Part shown: positions 1 to 11,990 of the stretch, one piece after another | Layout: each line of letters begins with the position of its first letter | Numbering within the stretch: the first letter of the stretch is position 1 | IMG/VR virus record: IMGVR_UViG_2718217868_000007 | Location: 1 to 11,990 of that record | Direction: 5' to 3' (one strand) | Length of the DNA stretch: 11,990 nucleotides | Source of the DNA: a virus | Taxonomy: Duplodnaviria > Heunggongvirae > Uroviricota > Caudoviricetes | The notes under the pieces: model-generated | Seen by the model: only the letters and a program-made list of their open reading frames with translations | Databases searched by the model: none | What the model was told of the DNA's origin: nothing | Program-made: the position numbers and the translations under genes

Positions 1-981
1 ATGAACGCAATAATATCGCCCGATTATTACTATGTTCTTACCGTTGCTGGTCAGTCTAATGCCATGGCGTATGGCGAAGGACTGCCATTACCGGACAGGG
101 AAGATGCGCCTCATCCCAGAATTAAACAATTAGCGAGATTTGCGCATACGCATCCCGGAGGCCCGTCATGTCACTTTAACGACATTATTCCACTGACTCA
201 CTGCCCACACGATGTTCAGGATATGCAGGGTTATCACCATCCTCTGGCAACGAATCATCAAACACAGTACGGCACCGTTGGCCAGGCACTGCATATTGCA
301 CGGAAATTACTACCCTTTATTCCTGATAATGCAGGGGTTCTCATCGTTCCATGTTGCCGTGGCGGATCGGCTTTTACCGCGGGCAGCGAAGGGACATATT
401 CAGAACGGCACGGAGCCAGCCATGATGCTTGTCGTTGGGGAACGGATACTCCGCTGTACCAGGATTTAGTCAGCAGAACGCGAGCCGCACTGGCAAAAAA
501 TCCGCAGAACAAATTCCTCGGCGTATGCTGGATGCAAGGCGAATTTGACTTAATGACCAGTGACTACGCGTCACACCCTCAACACTTTAATCATATGGTT
601 GAAGCCTTTCGTAGGGATCTAAAACAATACCATTCTCAGCTTAATAATATTACTGACGCACCGTGGTTTTGCGGCGATACCACCTGGTACTGGAAAGAAA
701 ATTTCCCTCATGCGTATGAAGTTATTTATGGCAATTATCAAAATAATGTTTTAGCCAATATTATTTTCGTCTACTTCCAGCAACAAGGTGAAAGAGGACT
801 GACGAACGCGCCTGATGAAGATCCGGACGATTTAAGCACGGGATATTACGGTTCAGCGTACCGGTCACCGGAGAACTGGACGACGGCACTGCGAAGCAGT
901 CATTTCAACACGGCAGCCCGTCGGGGGATTATTTCTGACAGGTTTGTAGAAGCAATTTTGCAGTTTTGGCGCGAAAAGTGA
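1..981 (+). CDS. nanS: SGNH/DUF303-type sialate O-acetylesterase (NanS-like), 326 aa
   Basis: Full-length ORF starting at base 1. N-terminal GQSN block (VAGQSNAMAYGEG) is typical of SGNH/sialate O-acetylesterase hydrolases. The 326-aa length matches my recollection of chromosomal E. coli NanS (YjhS). Assignment is from memory of the family, not a search. Confidence 0.6.
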   Translation: MNAIISPDYYYVLTVAGQSNAMAYGEGLPLPDREDAPHPRIKQLARFAHTHPGGPSCHFNDIIPLTHCPHDVQDMQGYHHPLATNHQTQYGTVGQALHIARKLLPFIPDNAGVLIVPCCRGGSAFTAGSEGTYSERHGASHDACRWGTDTPLYQDLVSRTRAALAKNPQNKFLGVCWMQGEFDLMTSDYASHPQHFNHMVEAFRRDLKQYHSQLNNITDAPWFCGDTTWYWKENFPHAYEVIYGNYQNNVLANIIFVYFQQQGERGLTNAPDEDPDDLSTGYYGSAYRSPENWTTALRSSHFNTAARRGIISDRFVEAILQFWREK

Positions 982-1135
982 GCGTTCATTAATTTGATTT
1001 ATTCGCATCCATCAACGCTTTTAACTCCTCCGGCGTAAAAGGTGGTTTGCGTCGGTGCAACATCGCATGGCAATTAGGGTACACAGGCAGCAAAAAAACA
1101 AATGAGATCAAAGTAATATATCTTCACTTGCAGGC

Positions 1136-1369
1136 TTGAACAGCCGAAAATTTGCGAGCATGATCGCAATTATTTCACTGCCAGGGATATCAATGGCTTC
1201 CAGTAAATCGCTACAGCAGGCAATTGCCAACATAAAAATCTGGCACAAAGGTGAACAGCGCGCGCCGCATAAGCCATTGTTATTGCTATACGTATTAGCG
1301 GGATACCTGAATGGACATCCACGCCTTTTCGATTATTGTAGTGGAACAGTCTACGAGGATGCAGTTTGA
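1136..1369 (+). CDS. hypothetical 77-aa ORF with TTG start; possibly a gene remnant
   Basis: Six-frame ORF only. Starts at TTG, no clear RBS, overlapped by a minus-strand ORF (1170-1415). Lies in lower-GC DNA between nanS and the putative att remnant. Confidence 0.15.
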   Translation: MNSRKFASMIAIISLPGISMASSKSLQQAIANIKIWHKGEQRAPHKPLLLLYVLAGYLNGHPRLFDYCSGTVYEDAV

Positions 1370-1434
1370 AGTGAGTAAGTAAAGGTTGCTGGAAACGATC
1401 AATGCCGCCATACAATGATATTTGAGGATCACCA

Positions 1435-1620
1435 ATGAGTAATAAAAACTACGAAAGTCACCGCAAAGCAATAGTTAGTAAAGGTATACCACCCACTCTA
1501 TTAAATAGGCTCACCAATTCGGATGTTCAGGTGATCAATACCTTCTTAACACGAGTGAGCAAACTGGAACTATCTCAACAAGAGAAAGACTGGATCATAA
1601 AAATCATCTCTATGGTTTAG
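1435..1620 (+). CDS. hypothetical small protein, 61 aa
   Basis: ATG start with GAGGAT 8 nt upstream. No recognisable motif. AT-rich. Confidence 0.25.
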   Translation: MSNKNYESHRKAIVSKGIPPTLLNRLTNSDVQVINTFLTRVSKLELSQQEKDWIIKIISMV

Positions 1621-1822
1621 AGAATTTCAGCCTTGTAGCCTTTCAAGGGTTTTGTGTGGGTACAAACATTATCGAATCGGGATATAGCCGCAGCTGTAGC
1701 TGTATCCACATCAGTAAGTTGATGTAGGTTGACTTAGGTTGAGCGAAAAATAGCGAAAAGCCTTGTGTGGCGCGGATTTCAGTCATAAAAAAACGTCCGT
1801 TGACGTCTATTGATGTTCCGAT

Positions 1823-1860
1823 GGTGCGAAGGTGCGAAGGTGCGAAGGCCGGACTCAAAC
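1823..1860 (-). repeat. degenerate tRNA 3'-end-like sequence with a triplicated octamer; candidate distal att site of the P4-like prophage
   Basis: Plus strand has GGTGCGAA three times in tandem (1823-1846) followed by GGCCGGACTCAAAC. The reverse complement GTTTGAGTCCGGCCTTCGCACC resembles the T-arm/acceptor 3' end of tRNA-Leu (leuX, ...GGTTCGAGTCCGGCCTTCGGCACCA) as I recall it. It is not an intact tRNA. Confidence 0.4.
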
Positions 1861-2059
1861 ATCAAAATAAGTCAATGATAAAAAACAAATAATAAAACAC
1901 AACAATGAAATATGCCCCCTTTTGTGCCCCCACTGTTTTTCTGACCAATCTATTTTCAGCCCATCAACAAATCGGAAAGTTAAATAATTTTTAATCAGTA
2001 AGTTTGGATCCGTAGTTCGGATCCAAACCAGTGCATCTTTTATCCACATAAAAATTTTT

Positions 2060-2350
2060 TTTTCGGAAGAACTGTTCACACTGTTCACCTTTCTTTTTTC
2101 TCCTTTTATTTCATAGTGATAGGTGGTGAATAATGGGTGAAGGGTGAACATTCGATTCTTCACCTCCGGCATTCTGCCGGTGTGACTTGTGCAGGGGATT
2201 AATTTCCCGTGCTGAAATCACACCGGAAGAAAAAAGTTTTTTTTGATTTGATTGTTCACACTGTTCACCTTTCGTTTTTCTCTTTTAATTTCAGTGTGAT
2301 AACGGGTGAATATACGGTGAAGGGTGAACAGTGGATTGTTCACCTTCGGG
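2060..2350. repeat. crr-like cis replication region: two ~120-bp direct repeats carrying TGTTCACC/GGTGAACA iterons
   Basis: Repeat unit 1 (~2062-2169) and unit 2 (~2222-2350) are near-identical. Each contains TGTTCACA+TGTTCACC (2073-2089; 2253-2269), GGTGAACA (2143-2150; 2323-2330) and an inverted copy (2157-2164 degenerate; 2337-2344). Located immediately downstream of alpha, as crr is in P4. Confidence 0.75.
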
Positions 2351-2361
2351 GGATTCAGGGA

Positions 2362-2387
2362 TAAAAAAAGACCGGCAGATGCCGGTC
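2362..2387 (-). terminator. rho-independent terminator downstream of alpha
   Basis: On the minus strand, hairpin GACCGGC-ATCT-GCCGGTC (2370-2387) followed by a run of 7 T (plus-strand A run 2363-2369). Begins 16 nt after the alpha stop. Confidence 0.6.
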
Positions 2388-2403
2388 AGATGAGTCATGA
2401 TGG

Positions 2404-6133: not shown

Positions 6134-6522
6134 AAGGCAACCTCCGATAACAGCGTAAATGACGCTATCGCCGGAGTTCTCACGCTCGATGGCGATAGCC
6201 CAGACGGGGGTGAGAATACCGGCGTTATCGGAAACCGGCCAGCCCGGAGGCTGCCCCGCCTGAGCTACCATTGACTCAGTGGCATAACATGCGATTGCGA
6301 ACAGGATCATACCTGCACGGCAAACCACACGCCACACCATAATCTGGTGCTCTGTGGCGTTGATTGCGACACAAAAAAAGACGCATGGCGCGTCATATGT
6401 CGCCGATAACATACTCGGGTTCTCACGCCCGGCTGCCGATTTTGCGGCAGCGGAAAAACTATATCCGCAAATGCCGGAAAAAGGCAAGCCAGAAAAAGGG
6501 AGTTTTTGCAGAGCGGGCATCA
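6134..6522 (-). promoter_or_regulatory. untranslated leader of the left operon; candidate early promoter and RNA-based immunity region
   Basis: About 390 bp between vis and the first small gene with no convincing ORF. Contains a terminator-like hairpin and a 9-mer present twice (6403-6411; 6144-6152, abutting the SD) whose complement lies between them (6220-6231). P4 encodes its immunity RNA in this leader. Confidence 0.3.
6373..6394 (-). terminator. terminator-like hairpin plus T-run inside the leader
   Basis: Minus strand reads a 5-bp-stem hairpin GACGC-GCCAT-GCGTC (6380-6394) followed by TTTTTTT (plus-strand A run 6373-6379). The stem is short, so strength is uncertain. Confidence 0.4.
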
Positions 6523-8647: not shown

Positions 8648-9220
8648 ATGGAAAGCACAGCCTTACAGCAGGCCTTTGACACCTGTCAGAATAACAAAGC
8701 AGCATGGCTGCAACGCAAAAATGAGCTGGCTGCGGCCGAACAGGAATATCTGCGGCTTCTGTCCGGGGAAGGCAGAAACGTCAGTCGCCTGGACGAATTA
8801 CGCAATATTATCGAAGTCAGAAAATGGCAGGTGAATCAGGCTGCCGGTCGTTATATTCGTTCGCATGAAGCCGTTCAGCACATCAGCATCCGCGACCGGC
8901 TGAATGATTTTATGCAGCAGCACGGCACAGCACTGGCGGCCGCACTGGCACCGGAGCTGATGGGCTACAGTGAGCTGACGGCCATTGCCCGAAACTGTGC
9001 CATACAGCGTGCCACAGATGCCCTGCGTGAAGCCCTTCTGTCCTGGCTTGCGAAGAGGGAAAAAATTAATTATTCCGCACAGGATAGCGACATTTTAACG
9101 ACCATCGGATTCAGGCCTGACGCGGCTTCGGTGGATGACAGCCGTGAAAAATTCACTCCTGCGCAGAACATGATTTTTTCGCGTAAAAGTGCGCAACTGG
9201 CATCACATCAGTCTGTGTAA
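8648..9220 (+). CDS. psu: Psu-like polarity suppression / capsid decoration protein, 190 aa
   Basis: Third gene of the sid-delta-psu operon, 190 aa as in P4 Psu, followed by a terminator and the cos region. Assigned by synteny and size. Confidence 0.75.
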   Translation: MESTALQQAFDTCQNNKAAWLQRKNELAAAEQEYLRLLSGEGRNVSRLDELRNIIEVRKWQVNQAAGRYIRSHEAVQHISIRDRLNDFMQQHGTALAAALAPELMGYSELTAIARNCAIQRATDALREALLSWLAKREKINYSAQDSDILTTIGFRPDAASVDDSREKFTPAQNMIFSRKSAQLASHQSV

Positions 9221-9250
9221 AACTCCCCGAAAATCCGCCCGTTTTTACTG

Positions 9251-9295
9251 AAAAAAGCCATGCATCGATAAGGTGCATGGCTTTGCATGCGTTTT
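9251..9295 (+). terminator. rho-independent terminator after psu (A-run, 8-bp stem, T-rich tail; possibly bidirectional)
   Basis: A6 (9251-9256), stem GCCATGCA (9257-9264), 9-nt loop, TGCATGGC (9274-9281), then TTTGCATGCGTTTT (9282-9295). Confidence 0.55.
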
Positions 9296-9384
9296 CCTGC
9301 CTCATTTTCTGCAAACCGCGCCATTCCCGGCGCGGCCTGAGCGTGTCAGTGCAACTGCATTAAAACCGCCCCGCAAAGCGGGCG

Positions 9385-9403
9385 GGCGAGGCGGGGAAAG
9401 CAC
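9385..9403. other. cos-like site: P2/P4-type 19-nt cohesive-end sequence
   Basis: Exact 19-mer GGCGAGGCGGGGAAAGCAC, followed by TGCGCGC, which matches the P2/P4 cohesive end as I recall it. Lies between psu and the cargo locus, as expected for a P4-type element. Confidence 0.65.
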
Positions 9404-9838
9404 TGCGCGCCAGCATCAAAGTGTTTAGATAATTTCGCGGCCTGAGGGTGACGACACGTAGTGCAGATTCGTACGAGTGCCTGTTACTGTCGGATACTAT
9501 TCAAGGGCAGCACAACCTATGAAATGACAATGCTAAAGGAGACGAAGAAGCCGCCTTAAGGCGGCATACATCAGTCACTTGTTGGGTGCCGAAGGCGTAA
9601 CTTTTAAATCTGGTCATATAATGTCTTGCAATTTTTTTACATCGTTTATTCGTTGCTATAGTAACCTGTACCAATCCATATACCAGTTTAAAGCCGTCAG
9701 ATAAATTAGGCTATCATGGAGCAGACGGCACGGCGGTACATGAGTAACGTACCTATTTTCTCAACTTGTTTAAGATGCTGTGCAATACTGACGCATGGGA
9801 GCATGCTTCATCATTTTTTTGTATCCGGATATGGAATG

Positions 9839-9866
9839 TTGACAATCAAAATGTTATCAATATCTT
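9839..9866 (+). promoter_or_regulatory. sigma70-like promoter for the Doc/Fic cargo gene (TTGACA, 16-nt spacer, TATCTT)
   Basis: Perfect -35 TTGACA (9839-9844), 16-nt spacer, -10 TATCTT (9861-9866). Gene RBS AAGGA at 9890-9894 and ATG at 9901. Confidence 0.45.
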
Positions 9867-9900
9867 TCATGTGATCTAAAAATCGTAATAAGGATAGTGA

Positions 9901-10629
9901 ATGCGTATTGGAACTGTAGAAGAAATTCACAATTTTTTAAGTGAATACTATATCAACTCCGAAGACCCTATATCCCCACCAGGAGTGAAAGATGTGGGAT
10001 TACTAGAATCAGCGTGTGCAAGACCGTTTGCTTCCGCTGGTGGGCAGGATGCTTTCGGCGATGTATACCACAAAGCAGCAGCACTATTCCATGGAATTAT
10101 TTCCAACCACTGTTTTTATAACGGAAACAAAAGAACCGCATTATTATCAGCCCTTTATTTTTTGAGTGAACATAACCTTTGGTTAGAAAGATGTAATGAT
10201 GAGGAAATGTTTGAATTTACTCGTCAGGTTGCCGCTCATGAAATATGTGAAAAAAGGGATGACGAGATAGATATTATAGCAGATTGGTTTAACAGAAATA
10301 CTCGGCGAATAGTGAAAGGAGAAAAACCCCTTAACTTTTCGAGCCTACGAGAAAGTTTATCTCAATTTGATTTCCAACTAGAAGATGAAGGGCAATATGC
10401 ATTCATCTATAAAAATGGTGAGATCGTTGAGAAAGTGCTAAAAAAAGGGAAGCAAGGAATGCAAGAATATGATCAAGCATATATTGCTGAGCTTCGAAAG
10501 CGCTTAGATTTAACGCCTGAACATGGGGTTGATAGCGCTCGTTTTTATGGGCAGAAAGGTTTAAATGAGGATTTGAATGAATTTATGAAACTTCGTGTAA
10601 AAGTTTTTGATTGGCTAGCCAAGATCTAA
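9901..10629 (+). CDS. Fic/Doc-family protein (Doc-type HxFxNGNKR motif) with ~110-aa uncharacterised C-terminal extension; satellite cargo gene
   Basis: 242 aa. Residues 70-78 HCFYNGNKR (nt 10108-10134) fit the Doc-type HxFx(D/N)(A/G)NKR active-site motif. No Phd-like partner ORF is evident nearby. Markedly AT-rich relative to the P4 backbone. Has its own promoter, RBS and terminator. Confidence 0.85.
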   Translation: MRIGTVEEIHNFLSEYYINSEDPISPPGVKDVGLLESACARPFASAGGQDAFGDVYHKAAALFHGIISNHCFYNGNKRTALLSALYFLSEHNLWLERCNDEEMFEFTRQVAAHEICEKRDDEIDIIADWFNRNTRRIVKGEKPLNFSSLRESLSQFDFQLEDEGQYAFIYKNGEIVEKVLKKGKQGMQEYDQAYIAELRKRLDLTPEHGVDSARFYGQKGLNEDLNEFMKLRVKVFDWLAKI

Positions 10630-10635
10630 AACTTA

Positions 10636-10660
10636 AGAAGCCTGCGTTTCGCAGGCTTCT
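10636..10660. terminator. hairpin terminator between the convergent Doc/Fic gene and int
   Basis: Perfect inverted repeat AGAAGCCTGCG-TTT-CGCAGGCTTCT with AT-rich flanks on both sides, placed between two convergent stop codons (10629 and 10731). Confidence 0.5.
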
Positions 10661-10730
10661 ATTATTAAAATCAGAAAAGCACCACTTTAAATATAACATT
10701 TAACGAAATTGCGTACTATTAATAATAAAT

Positions 10731-11990
10731 TTACACCTGCCTTTTTGCGAAATCGTATGGTGTAATATAATCAACAGTGTTTTTTTCAAGATAATCGGCC
10801 CACCACTGTACCATCAAACGACGTTCATCCAAATGCTCAGATGTATGGATATAAGCTGCACGTACATTATTACGCTCTGAATGGCTCAACTGTCGTTCTA
10901 TCGCGTCATCACTCCATAACCCTGACTCACCGAGCGCTCCACGCGCCATCGTCCTAAATCCATGCCCGCAAACCTCGGTTTTCGTGTCATACCCCATCGC
11001 ACGCAATGCGCTGTTTACCGTGTTTTCACTCATAACTTTAGTTGCGTCATGATCCCCCGGAAAGAGTAGCTCTTTATCACCACTAATCTGTTTTAACTGG
11101 TCTAACAAAATCATCGCCTGCCAACTAAGAGGAACAATATGCTCCTCTTTCATCTTCATGCCACGATACGAGTAACGAACACCTTTAATTTCTTCTCGTT
11201 TTGCAGGTATACGCCAAAGCGATTTATCGAAGTCGAACTCATCCCAACGTGCGAAACGTAACTCACTGGAACGCACAAAAGTTAGTAATGAAAGTTCGAC
11301 CGCGATCCGTGTCATTACACGGCCACGATATGCCGCAAGACGTGCGAGAAACTCAGGAAACCGGCTAGAGGGTAGAGCTGGATAGTGTCGCGCTTTAGTT
11401 GTCGATAAAGCACCGGCCATATCACTGGCTGGATTTGAGTCGATGTAATCGTTCTGTACGGCATAACGCATAATGGCCGTAACGCGCTGCTGAAGACGCT
11501 GCGCCACGTCATGCTTACCACTGGCATCAACTTTTTTAATCGGGGCTAACAAGTGACTGGTTTTGAGCTGGCGAATGTCGGACAAACCGATATGAGGGAA
11601 GATATAAAGCTCAAGGTAGCGAAGAACGCGCGATCGATGATCTTCACTCCAGCGCTTGTTACTAGCATGCCATTCACGAGCAATGGTTTCGAAAGTATAT
11701 GCCCCCGAATTCTCAGCCTTAGCTTCCTTCTGTTCGGCTTTTGGGTCAATGCCCTGCACTAACAGCTTTTTAGCTTCGTCACGCTTTGCTCTTGCCTGAG
11801 CAAGGGTCACAGTGGGCCAAACACCAAAAGCGAGGCGATCCTCTTTTTTGTCAGAGGGACGTCTGTATTTCATGCGCCAGTATTTAGAACCCTTGGCCGA
11901 AACCTCGAGATACAAACCGCCGCCATCGGCCATTTTGTAGGTTTTGTCTTTTGGCTTTGCGGTCTCGACTTGTCTGGCGTTGAGCTTCAT
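10731..11990 (-). CDS. int: P4-type tyrosine integrase, 419 aa
   Basis: N-terminus MKLNARQVETAKPKDKTYKMADGGGLYLEV is characteristic of P4-family integrases. C-terminal catalytic region has H-x-x-R (GHGFRTMARG) and the tyrosine in RAAYIH. The ATG is the last codon of the window, so the promoter and tRNA/att site are off-window. Confidence 0.93.
   Translation of the reverse strand: MKLNARQVETAKPKDKTYKMADGGGLYLEVSAKGSKYWRMKYRRPSDKKEDRLAFGVWPTVTLAQARAKRDEAKKLLVQGIDPKAEQKEAKAENSGAYTFETIAREWHASNKRWSEDHRSRVLRYLELYIFPHIGLSDIRQLKTSHLLAPIKKVDASGKHDVAQRLQQRVTAIMRYAVQNDYIDSNPASDMAGALSTTKARHYPALPSSRFPEFLARLAAYRGRVMTRIAVELSLLTFVRSSELRFARWDEFDFDKSLWRIPAKREEIKGVRYSYRGMKMKEEHIVPLSWQAMILLDQLKQISGDKELLFPGDHDATKVMSENTVNSALRAMGYDTKTEVCGHGFRTMARGALGESGLWSDDAIERQLSHSERNNVRAAYIHTSEHLDERRLMVQWWADYLEKNTVDYITPYDFAKRQV

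What the first reader, a model, noticed from the sequence alone, without database searches (positions are those of the whole stretch)
9901..10629. Solitary Doc/Fic-domain gene in the cos-to-int variable locus of a P4-like satellite: candidate single-gene anti-phage system
In P4 the segment between cos and int holds non-essential genes, and in P4-like satellites this position is a known hotspot for diverse anti-phage systems. Here it holds one AT-rich gene with its own TTGACA-16-TATCTT promoter, RBS and hairpin terminator. Its N-terminal ~125 aa carry a Doc-type motif (HCFYNGNKR, residues 70-78). Doc normally needs a Phd antitoxin, and none is visible. A toxin-type effector alone in a defence hotspot fits an abortive-infection or toxin-sensor role.
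Basis: partly seen in the sequence, partly recalled or inferred. Interest (0 to 1): 0.85.

Follow-up and report, generated by a model that had tools for sequence, protein, structure and literature searches.

The report
Self-inhibited Doc kinase in P4 hotspot
A lone gene in the defence hotspot of a P4-like phage satellite encodes a Doc-type toxin kinase that seems to carry its own antitoxin piece at its tail, so it is a testable candidate for a one-protein anti-phage switch, though no protection has been shown.

Summary
ORF 9901-10629 (+) encodes 242 aa with HCFYNGNKR at residues 70-78. It matches Pfam Fic and NCBIfam DOC_P1 above their cut-offs, and its closest solved fold is P1 Doc. It is AT-rich and lies alone between cos/psu and int of a P4-like satellite. 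Rousset et al. 2022 defined this hotspot, and their Table S1 already lists this exact locus as "Fic". It is not in their table of tested systems.

"Toxin with no antitoxin" needs refining. The 242-aa length is kept in about 110 of the 120 best homologues across Proteobacteria. dN/dS between E. coli and Klebsiella alleles is 0.04. No partner gene is conserved in about 80 loci. The C-terminal 108 aa fold like HicA but lack its catalytic His. They end in ...FDWLAKI, the motif that ends antitoxins next to canonical Doc toxins (…ELAK).

Best reading: a single-chain toxin-antitoxin, held off in cis and released on infection to stop translation. The architecture is well supported. Kinase target, toxicity, cis-inhibition and defence are all inferred. 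I rate it a new variant of a known kind, interest about 0.6.

The parts
9338..9410 (.). cos region of the P4-like satellite. It marks the left edge of the variable psu/cos-int slot.
   Evidence: Matches the cos regions of P2 and P2-like phages at 90-95% identity. In 2,251 E. coli genomes similarity to this window stops at about 9427.
9428..9838 (+). Cargo-specific non-coding leader that travels with the gene. It contains a hairpin at 9550-9565.
   Evidence: Present in only 8 of 5,426 E. coli genomes, always with the gene. Only 61% identical, with indels, to the Klebsiella copy, against 89% for the gene. No peptide is conserved in any frame. No Rfam match.
9839..9866 (+). Sigma-70-like promoter candidate, TTGACA-16-TATCTT.
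   Evidence: Matches 10 of 12 consensus positions. It lies in the best-conserved block of the leader. Such hits are not more frequent than in shuffled sequence (3 against 4.1), and the -35 is TTTATA in Klebsiella.
9890..9894 (+). Shine-Dalgarno sequence AAGGA, 6 nt before the ATG.
   Evidence: Read directly from the sequence. Invariant in the four aligned copies.
9901..10299 (+). Doc-type Fic domain, residues 1-133.
10108..10134 (+). Catalytic motif H70-C-F-Y-N-G-N-K77-R78, the Doc form HxFx[DN][AG]NKR.
   Evidence: H70, F72, N74, G75, N76, K77 and R78 are invariant in 36 homologues at 54-95% identity, and the motif is kept in the long-form relatives. It aligns with HIFNDANKR of P1 Doc. The second Arg of the AMPylase motif is Leu here.
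10336..10512 (+). HicA-like alpha-beta3-alpha domain, residues 146-204, without the HicA catalytic His.
10525..10560 (+). Highly conserved loop G209-V-D-S-A-R-F-Y-G-Q-K-G220.
   Evidence: G209, D211, S212, F215, Y216, G217 and G220 are invariant in the short forms. D, F and Y are invariant, and G209 and S212 nearly so, when the ~400-aa long forms are included. Its role is unknown.
10561..10626 (+). C-terminal amphipathic helix ending ...VFDWLAKI. Proposed cis 'Phd-C-like' neutralising element.
   Evidence: Helix 221-240 in the model. The terminal motif Phi-x-x-L-[AVG]-[KNER]-x? is found in 33 of 36 family members and in 8 of 11 antitoxins encoded upstream of canonical Doc genes, against 0.38% of background ORFs.
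10636..10660 (.). Hairpin terminator between the convergent doc-like and int genes.
   Evidence: 11-bp stem with 7 GC pairs. -19.3 kcal/mol, z -5.4.
10731..11990 (-). P4-type integrase, the right edge of the slot.
   Evidence: ORF of 419 aa. Annotated as a tyrosine recombinase next to tRNA-Leu in E. coli H6.

Best explanation
The gene encodes a single-chain toxin-antitoxin carried as a self-contained cargo, with its own promoter-like site, RBS and terminator, in the psu/cos-int defence hotspot of a P4-like satellite.

Residues 1-133 are a Doc-type Fic kinase with an intact HxFxNGNKR site. By analogy with P1 Doc it would phosphorylate EF-Tu and stop translation (inferred).

Residues 146-204 are a HicA-like domain that has lost the RNase histidine. 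The last helix (221-242) ends in the motif that terminates Doc-neutralising antitoxins.

The proposal is that this helix blocks the kinase in cis, as the C-terminus of Phd does in trans. The HicA-like module would act as tether and sensor. An infection-linked cue, possibly an RNA or a ribosome-associated signal, would release the block and cause translational arrest or abortive infection, to the benefit of the satellite-bearing population.

Shown: the domain anatomy, its conservation, the absence of a conserved partner gene, and the mobile-element and hotspot context. Inferred: kinase target, toxicity, cis-inhibition, the trigger, and defence.
For: Doc identity. The catalytic motif is invariant.

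Strong purifying selection on the whole protein: dN/dS 0.043 between the E. coli and Klebsiella alleles. About 110 of the 120 best homologues listed are exactly 242 aa.

No conserved partner: BLAST clustering of neighbours in about 80 loci finds none beyond closely related elements. Nearest-neighbour Pfam content is heterogeneous. No protein is conserved in the leader.

The C-terminal module is found attached to Doc in the full-length hits; the rest are short, fragment-like entries. Only 54 representatives among 1.84 billion match it.

HicA-like fold.

Terminal ...LAK motif shared with Doc antitoxins of four different N-terminal types. Phd-C is a modular neutraliser that works even when fused to SUMO (PMC10440598).

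The terminal helix has pLDDT 81-91 in the full-length model but 67-69 in the isolated C-terminal model.

Context: published P4 hotspot in which 7 of 19 tested cargos defend. The same slot holds the gene in Klebsiella satellites. It lies next to the cI-like repressor in Pseudomonas prophages. It is solitary on Salmonella and Vibrio filamentous phages. In Desulfovibrio it lies near KAP NTPase and helicase genes. Some neighbours are RM, DISARM or SoFic-type genes.

Precedents: SoFic, a Fic-domain defence protein, and the fused toxin-antitoxin CapRel (PMC9712102, listed).
Against: There are no experimental data on toxicity, kinase activity or phage protection for any family member. It is absent from the table of systems tested in the hotspot paper.

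I could not inspect model coordinates, so docking of the terminal helix on the Doc groove is not verified.

The terminal-motif pattern was defined after seeing the data. 3 of 11 antitoxins do not fit it, and neither does P1 Phd, whose sequence I recalled from memory.

The C-terminal domain is as conserved as the catalytic domain across phyla. That is unlike the fast-evolving sensors of many defence proteins.

Most family neighbours are housekeeping or unknown genes, and I had no control set for defence enrichment.

PADLOC has no full-length model for the protein.
Confidence: 0.5

Rival explanations
1. It is a host-modulating accessory gene (moron) rather than a defence system. A regulated, non-lethal Doc-type kinase would tune translation or another host process to favour maintenance or transfer of the satellite, prophage or filamentous phage.
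For: It is carried by three unrelated kinds of temperate or chronic elements. Its Doc-like PHROG relative, phrog_577, is filed under 'moron, auxiliary metabolic gene and host takeover'. Both domains are strongly conserved across phyla, which suggests a conserved host partner. Many chromosomal copies sit among housekeeping genes.
Against: Its position in the P4 hotspot and beside prophage repressors is typical of defence or exclusion genes. The catalytic motif is identical to that of a known lethal toxin. An antitoxin-type terminal motif implies that the activity needs restraining.
Confidence: 0.2
2. It is an addiction or stabilisation module. Loss of the element, or proteolysis of the C-terminal part, would free the kinase and kill or arrest cells that lose the satellite.
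For: Doc is the classical post-segregational killer of P1 (established knowledge; PMC10440598). The family occurs on small replicons and integrated mobile elements.
Against: Classical addiction needs a labile antitoxin made separately from a stable toxin. Here both parts are in one chain, so loss of the gene removes both. Many copies are chromosomal and outside recognisable mobile elements.
Confidence: 0.12
3. It is a true orphan Doc toxin neutralised in trans by an antitoxin encoded elsewhere in the genome, and the C-terminal extension has an unrelated role.
For: RefSeq names it a type II toxin. No adjacent antitoxin gene exists. In Pseudomonas prophages a separate small-protein-plus-Doc pair lies just upstream.
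Against: The family is solitary in very diverse genomes and on 8-10 kb filamentous phages that encode no recognisable Phd-like partner. The Pseudomonas upstream Doc gene is truncated in some loci while the 242-aa gene stays intact. The terminal antitoxin-like motif is present in cis.
Confidence: 0.08
4. It is a decaying or inactive remnant of a toxin-antitoxin locus with no current function.
For: The antitoxin gene is missing. A long 470-bp non-coding leader diverges quickly. IS insertions occur in the leader of some Klebsiella copies.
Against: dN/dS is 0.043. The catalytic residues are invariant, and the 242-aa length is kept in about 110 of the 120 best homologues listed.
Confidence: 0.02

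Closest known systems
Phd-Doc of phage P1 (type II toxin-antitoxin; Doc is a Fic-fold kinase of EF-Tu)
   Different: There is no separate antitoxin gene and no DNA-binding antitoxin domain. The neutralising-type helix is fused in cis behind a HicA-like domain. The protein is about twice the length of Doc. The target and toxicity are untested.
SoFic (Fic-domain defence protein; Millman et al. 2022)
   Same: It is a Fic-superfamily enzyme proposed to act alone as a toxic effector in phage defence. SoFic is reported to modify EF-Tu (bioRxiv 10.64898/2026.07.09.737422), the target expected for Doc.
   Different: SoFic is a ~370-aa class II AMPylase. It has been reported to be countered by a small downstream protein, AS1 (PMC12249575). 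The window protein gives no PADLOC SoFic hit, has the kinase-type NKR motif, and has no downstream ORF.
CapRel(SJ46) and other fused toxin-antitoxins
   Same: The proposed logic is the same: toxin domain and antitoxin element in one polypeptide, held off in cis, encoded on a prophage-type element, and released by an infection cue (PMC9712102, listed).
   Different: The toxin family is unrelated (toxSAS against Doc kinase), and so is the regulatory domain (pseudo-zinc-finger against HicA-like plus helix). Release by a trigger is shown for CapRel and only inferred here.
Class III Fic proteins (e.g. NmFic) with a C-terminal inhibitory helix
   Different: Those proteins use the [S/T]xxxE[G/N] helix to block AMPylation. 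Here the enzyme is Doc-type and the terminal motif is the Phd-C-like ...LAK end. The invariant D-S-x-x-F-Y-G loop only loosely resembles the inhibitory motif.
gop-beta-cII of P4 and other cargos of the psu-int hotspot
   Same: The same slot of the same kind of satellite, with the gene under its own promoter. gop-beta-cII and six other cargos protect against phages (PMC9122126).
   Different: The proteins are unrelated. This cargo was catalogued as 'Fic' but is absent from the table of tested systems.

Membership tests
Fic/DOC superfamily (Pfam PF02661) | Profile match above the gathering score | tested here: met
   51 bits against a cut-off of 24, E 2.6e-13, residues 6-88.
Doc subfamily (NCBIfam TIGR01550 DOC_P1) | Profile match above the curated cut-off | tested here: met
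   53.3 bits against 38.65.
Doc subfamily | Kinase-type motif HxFx[DN][AG]NKR, without the second Arg of the AMPylase motif HxFx[DE]GNGRxxR | tested here: met
   HCFYNGNKRTAL aligns with HIFNDANKRTAL of P1 Doc. The motif is invariant in the family.
Doc subfamily | Doc-like three-dimensional fold | tested here: met
Doc subfamily | Phosphorylates EF-Tu and arrests translation | not testable with these tools
   Needs a toxicity assay and phosphoproteomics.
Type II Phd-Doc toxin-antitoxin operon | Separate antitoxin gene adjacent to and co-transcribed with the toxin gene | tested here: not met
   RefSeq annotates none. No neighbour is conserved in about 80 loci. The upstream 52-aa ORF is not conserved. 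Only 101 bp separate the stop codon from int.
Fused (single-chain) toxin-antitoxin | Antitoxin-derived neutralising element in the same polypeptide as the toxin | tested here: inconclusive
   The terminal motif is shared with Doc antitoxins and is strongly enriched over background. Docking on the active site and neutralisation are not verified.
HicA toxin family | HicA/dsRBD-like alpha-beta3-alpha fold | tested here: met
HicA toxin family | Sequence-profile match and the catalytic His of the G-S-H turn | tested here: not met
   No Pfam, NCBIfam or PDB sequence hit. The residues after G164 are variable and no His is conserved.
SoFic defence system | Match to the PADLOC SoFic model and an AMPylase-type motif | tested here: not met
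   SoFic is not among the PADLOC hits at E <= 1. The motif is of the NKR (Doc) type.
PADLOC candidate PDC-S23 | Full-length match to the profile | tested here: not met
   Only residues 35-114 match profile positions 225-308 of 327, E 1e-9. This is the shared Fic core only.
Cargo of the P4 psu/cos-int hotspot | Variable gene set between psu/cos and int of a P4-like satellite | tested here: met
   P4 synteny. Similarity in other E. coli genomes ends at about 9427. The locus is listed in Table S1 of PMC9122126.
Anti-phage defence system | Reduces phage plaquing or burst when expressed | not testable with these tools
   Not found in the table of tested systems (Table S2) of PMC9122126. No report found in the literature searches.

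The most novel reading that the evidence does not exclude
This is the first Doc-kinase-based, one-protein abortive-infection system. A catalytically dead HicA-like RNA-binding domain would sense an infection-specific RNA or ribosome state and pull a Phd-C-like helix off the kinase, which then phosphorylates EF-Tu. It would be a widespread family (242-aa short forms and ~400-aa long forms with IF2_N-like repeats) recruited repeatedly by satellites, lambdoid prophages and filamentous phages.
Probability: 0.22. Interest if true: 0.8.

Novelty: new variant of a known kind. Interest (0 to 1): 0.6.

Why it matters
If the model is right, Doc-type kinases join the effectors of phage defence. It would also be a second, unrelated example, after CapRel, of a toxin and its antitoxin element fused into one sensor-effector protein.

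It would explain why databases hold many apparently orphan 'death-on-curing toxins' annotated as type II toxins without partners.

The proposed parts are small and separable: kinase, HicA-like domain and terminal ...LAK helix. Truncations and point mutants can therefore test the mechanism directly.

It also shows how a neutralising peptide that is modular among Doc antitoxins can be moved onto the toxin itself.

Tried and rejected
1. Protein antitoxin in the 470-bp leader. The 52-aa ORF at 9716-9874 has an unrelated N-terminal half in Klebsiella and is truncated in L012. Six-frame comparison shows only DNA-level conservation near the promoter. Rejected.

2. Known RNA element or RNA antitoxin. 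Rfam finds nothing in 9428-10730, only the P4 C4/isrK region at 6188-6464.

3. Conserved partner gene across the family. None found by BLAST clustering or by Pfam and PADLOC scans of nearest neighbours.

4. Embedding in type I RM operons, in the manner of PrrC. Seen in only a few loci, so it is not a family rule.

5. Sequence-level identification of the C-terminal domain with Pfam, NCBIfam, and PDB phmmer and profile searches. Nothing significant.

6. Mutual-information coevolution (177 sequences, Neff 131) to test contact between the terminal helix and the Doc domain. The top pairs form one block that appears to track the short-form/long-form split, so I treat the result as uninformative.

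7. AFDB fold search of the C-terminal model. The library was unavailable. The BFVD search returned only two Doc-like viral hits.

8. Model coordinates are not exposed, so docking of the helix on the active site could not be measured.

9. Table S1B of the hotspot paper is cut in the stored copy, so I could not see how the authors classified the 'Fic' group.

Full report
**Observation**

The ORF at 9901-10629 (+) is real. It encodes 242 aa, and HCFYNGNKR occupies residues 70-78.
- It matches Pfam Fic (PF02661) at 51 bits against a cut-off of 24.
- It matches NCBIfam TIGR01550 DOC_P1 at 53.3 bits against 38.65.
- It matches a full-length PHROG of unknown function, phrog_18015, at E 4e-78.
- PADLOC gives only partial hits to the Fic core. 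The best is PDC-S23, residues 35-114 on profile positions 225-308 of 327.
- GC content is 0.34-0.39 across 9601-10800, against 0.53-0.64 in the P4 core.
- The TTGACA-16-TATCTT site is at 9839-9866 (10 of 12 consensus positions). The scan finds no more promoter-like sites than shuffled sequence does (3 against 4.1).
- AAGGA lies 6 nt before the ATG.
- The hairpin at 10636-10660 has an 11-bp stem and folds at -19.3 kcal/mol, z -5.4. It sits between the convergent doc-like and int genes.

**Context**

The window is a P4-like satellite, 96.5% identical to P4 over 73% of its length. The P2-type cos match lies at about 9338-9410.

In E. coli H6 (NZ_CP010170) the element sits beside tRNA-Leu. RefSeq annotates this gene, WP_073464939, alone between psu and int.

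In 2,251 of 5,426 complete E. coli genomes, similarity to this stretch stops at about 9427. Only 8 genomes carry the cargo.

Rousset et al. 2022 defined the psu-int locus as a hotspot of anti-phage systems. Seven of the 19 cargos they tested protected against phage (PMC9122126). Their Table S1 lists this very locus as "Fic WP_073464939". "Fic" does not occur in their table of tested systems. The locus is therefore catalogued but uncharacterised.

**The gene is functional and belongs to a conserved two-domain family**

A search of 5.8 billion proteins returned 352 homologues. About 110 of the 120 best are exactly 242 aa. They are 54-62% identical across Pseudomonas, Achromobacter, Shewanella, Aeromonas, Desulfovibrio and others.

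In an alignment of 36 of them, both halves are conserved. H70, F72, N74, G75, N76, K77 and R78 are invariant. So is a C-terminal set that includes G209, D211, S212, F215, Y216 and G217.

Between the E. coli and Klebsiella alleles, dN/dS is 0.043.

More distant relatives in Actinobacteria, Planctomycetes, Acidobacteria and candidate phyla are 30-38% identical. They keep both domains and add an N-terminal extension of about 150 aa.

**Anatomy**

The AF2 model has pLDDT 87.5 and shows three parts:
- a helical domain, residues 1-133;
- an alpha-beta-beta-beta-alpha unit, residues 146-204;
- helices at 212-216 and 221-240.

phmmer aligns HCFYNGNKRTAL with HIFNDANKRTAL of P1 Doc. This is the kinase-type motif. 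The second arginine of the AMPylase motif is absent.

There is no sequence-level match to any Pfam, NCBIfam or PDB entry. The position that holds the catalytic His in HicA is variable. The domain is therefore HicA-like in fold but is not a HicA RNase.

A profile of this C-terminal module finds only 54 representatives among 1.84 billion proteins. These are full-length Doc fusions or short, fragment-like entries.

**No partner gene**

Neighbours within 2 kb in about 80 loci share nothing beyond closely related elements.

Pfam scans of the nearest flanking genes (70 upstream, 63 downstream) are heterogeneous.

In the window, the 470-bp leader travels with the gene but is only 61% identical to the Klebsiella copy, with indels. 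The gene is 89% identical and int 90%.

The 52-aa ORF at 9716-9874 is not conserved as protein.

Nothing lies in the 101 bp between the stop codon and int. This matters because SoFic, another Fic-domain defence protein, was later found to have a small downstream antitoxin (PMC12249575).

**The antitoxin element appears to be in cis**

The family ends in ...VFDWLAKI. The consensus is ...V[M/F]xRLAK[I/T], and the long forms end ...TLxRLARL.

I fetched proteins encoded directly upstream of canonical ~125-aa Doc genes. They end in the same way whatever their N-terminal fold:

| Source | N-terminal type | C-terminus |
|---|---|---|
| Streptococcus phage | Phd/YefM | ...DAFKELAK |
| Monoglobales phage | unannotated | ...AVYEELAK |
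| Moorella phage | 54-aa protein | ...PALEELAK |
| Methylobacterium | AbrB | ...DVLRELAK |
| Pseudomonas prophage | 60-aa protein | ...RAFEELAKV |
| E. faecium | addiction module antitoxin | ...AAFKELVEK |
| B. thuringiensis | AbrB | ...GAFKDLVNR |
| C. botulinum | unannotated | ...KALKELGKC |

The pattern Phi-x-x-L-[AVG]-[KNER]-x? at the C-terminus fits 8 of 11 such antitoxins and 33 of 36 family members. It fits 0.38% of 4,750 background ORFs. I defined the pattern after seeing the data, so the formal P values overstate the case.

Ernits et al. showed that this "Phd-C" end is the part that neutralises Doc. It is modular and works even when fused to SUMO (PMC10440598).

The terminal helix is also modelled more confidently in the full-length protein than alone, pLDDT 81-91 against 67-69. 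That is consistent with packing on the Doc domain. The two models used alignments of different depth, however, and I could not inspect coordinates.

**Most likely mechanism**

The protein is a single-chain toxin-antitoxin. A Doc-type kinase is restrained by its own Phd-C-like tail, which is tethered through a non-catalytic HicA-like domain. On some infection-linked cue the block is lifted and translation stops through phosphorylation of EF-Tu, as for P1 Doc. The logic is that of CapRel(SJ46).
- Shown: the domain anatomy, conservation, purifying selection, absence of a partner gene, and the context.
- Inferred: toxicity, the substrate, cis-inhibition, the nature of the trigger, and any protection against phages.

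The very high conservation of the C-terminal module across phyla suggests a conserved ligand, such as RNA or a ribosome-associated component, rather than a variable phage protein.

My confidence is about 0.8 for the architecture and about 0.45-0.5 for a defence role.

**Context in other genomes fits an accessory, conflict-related gene**

The family member occupies:
- the same psu-int slot in Klebsiella satellites, 95% identical, sometimes with an IS element in the leader;
- the position next to the cI-like S24 repressor in Pseudomonas lambdoid prophages;
- solitary cargo positions in a Vibrio inovirus and a Salmonella inovirus replicative form;
- a Desulfovibrio region with KAP NTPase and helicase genes.

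Some nearest neighbours are type I, II, IIG, III or IV restriction-modification genes, DISARM genes or SoFic-like genes. Many others are housekeeping genes, and I had no control set.

**Rivals**
- A non-lethal host-modulating moron (0.2).
- An addiction module (0.12). This is hard to reconcile with toxin and antitoxin in one chain.
- An orphan toxin neutralised in trans (0.08).
- A decaying remnant (0.02). This is contradicted by dN/dS and the invariant catalytic site.

**Novelty**

The hotspot, the presence of a "Fic" cargo at this locus, Fic-based defence (SoFic) and fused toxin-antitoxins are all known.

Literature searches found no description of a Doc kinase fused to a HicA-like domain and a Phd-C-like tail, and no Doc-type kinase acting as a defence effector.

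I rate it a new variant of a known kind, of moderate to high interest, because the hypothesis is sharp and cheap to test.

Noticed in passing
L026-L029, L033-L037 and other loci (e.g. L027:4539-5759): Distant relatives in Actinobacteria, Planctomycetes, Acidobacteria and candidate phyla are about 400 aa. They keep the Doc domain, the HicA-like domain and the ...RLA[KR]x end, and add an N-terminal extension of about 150 aa built of two similar units. Five of six scanned give weak, sub-threshold IF2_N (PF04760) hits, E 0.003-0.3. This hints at a link to the translation apparatus.
   Followed up: partly
L002:4312-5729 (Pseudomonas prophage), also L006, L017, L019: Just upstream of the 242-aa gene lies a canonical-looking pair. 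It consists of a 60-aa protein ending ...FEELAKV and a 161-aa Doc-like protein with a variant motif, HPFFNANKR. In L003-L005 the 161-aa gene is cut down to 72 aa while the 242-aa gene stays intact. The cluster sits beside the cI-like S24 repressor.
   Followed up: partly
window 9550-9565; Klebsiella copy in L007: A GC hairpin in the leader (GCCGCC-TTAA-GGCGGC) appears as GCCTC-CCT-GAGGC in Klebsiella, so pairing seems to be kept through changes on both arms. The scan flags it as terminator-like on the minus strand. Its role is unknown.
   Followed up: no
window 8648-11990 compared with L007:3768-7108: Mosaic relatedness between the E. coli and Klebsiella satellites. psu is only 70% identical, while the cargo gene (89%) and int (90%) are much closer. 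This suggests that cargo and int moved together between backbones. L008 and L011 carry an IS (DDE_Tnp_1) inserted in the leader.
   Followed up: partly
L099:3995-4729 (NZ_CP140410) and L092:6616-7348 (PQ189365): Family members are solitary cargo on filamentous phages. One is a 7.9-kb Salmonella 'plasmid' that is an inovirus replicative form (Zot, coat, secretin and replication protein II/X genes). The others are Vibrio cyclitrophicus inoviruses, where the gene is annotated as two ORFs and may be frameshifted.
   Followed up: partly
L030:4941-5722 (Candidatus Tokpelaia): A split version: a 160-aa Doc part and a 100-aa C-terminal part overlapping by 4 bp. It is either a frameshifted pseudogene in a symbiont or a natural two-gene form of the system.
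   Followed up: no
L066:4974-5714 and L091:4977-5714 (Rhodobacterales): A variant of about 245 aa. Its C-terminal domain escapes the family profile but reads even more like HicA (...LGCNVRDYDGGKLISF...IRIG...) and ends in the same ...LRRLAKI. In both loci the gene follows uvrB.
   Followed up: no
L012 (JAIIAN010000453.1, 'Bacillota' MAG): A 1.7-kb contig 99% identical to the E. coli cargo, with a P4-type int fragment, is binned as Bacillota. This is probably a binning error or contamination.
   Followed up: no
window 6188-6464 (-): Rfam finds the P4 immunity RNAs: C4 antisense RNA (6188-6275), isrK (6374-6451) and the c4 a1b1 target (6412-6464). These are expected for a P4-like element.
   Followed up: no
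window 1-2400: Similarity to P4 starts at 1836. The window starts with a 326-aa ORF (1-981). In the matching stretch of E. coli H6, left of the P4 alpha (primase) gene, RefSeq annotates a partial sialate O-acetylesterase, fragments of an HNH endonuclease and of a phosphorothioated-DNA-binding restriction endonuclease, and a 74-aa integrase piece. This looks like debris at the other end of the island.
   Followed up: no
upstream-neighbour set A2 (loci not individually identified): Two family members have a SoFic-type protein (PADLOC SoFic, best E 4e-70) as nearest upstream neighbour, and three have another Fic protein. Doc-like and Fic genes therefore tend to cluster.
   Followed up: no
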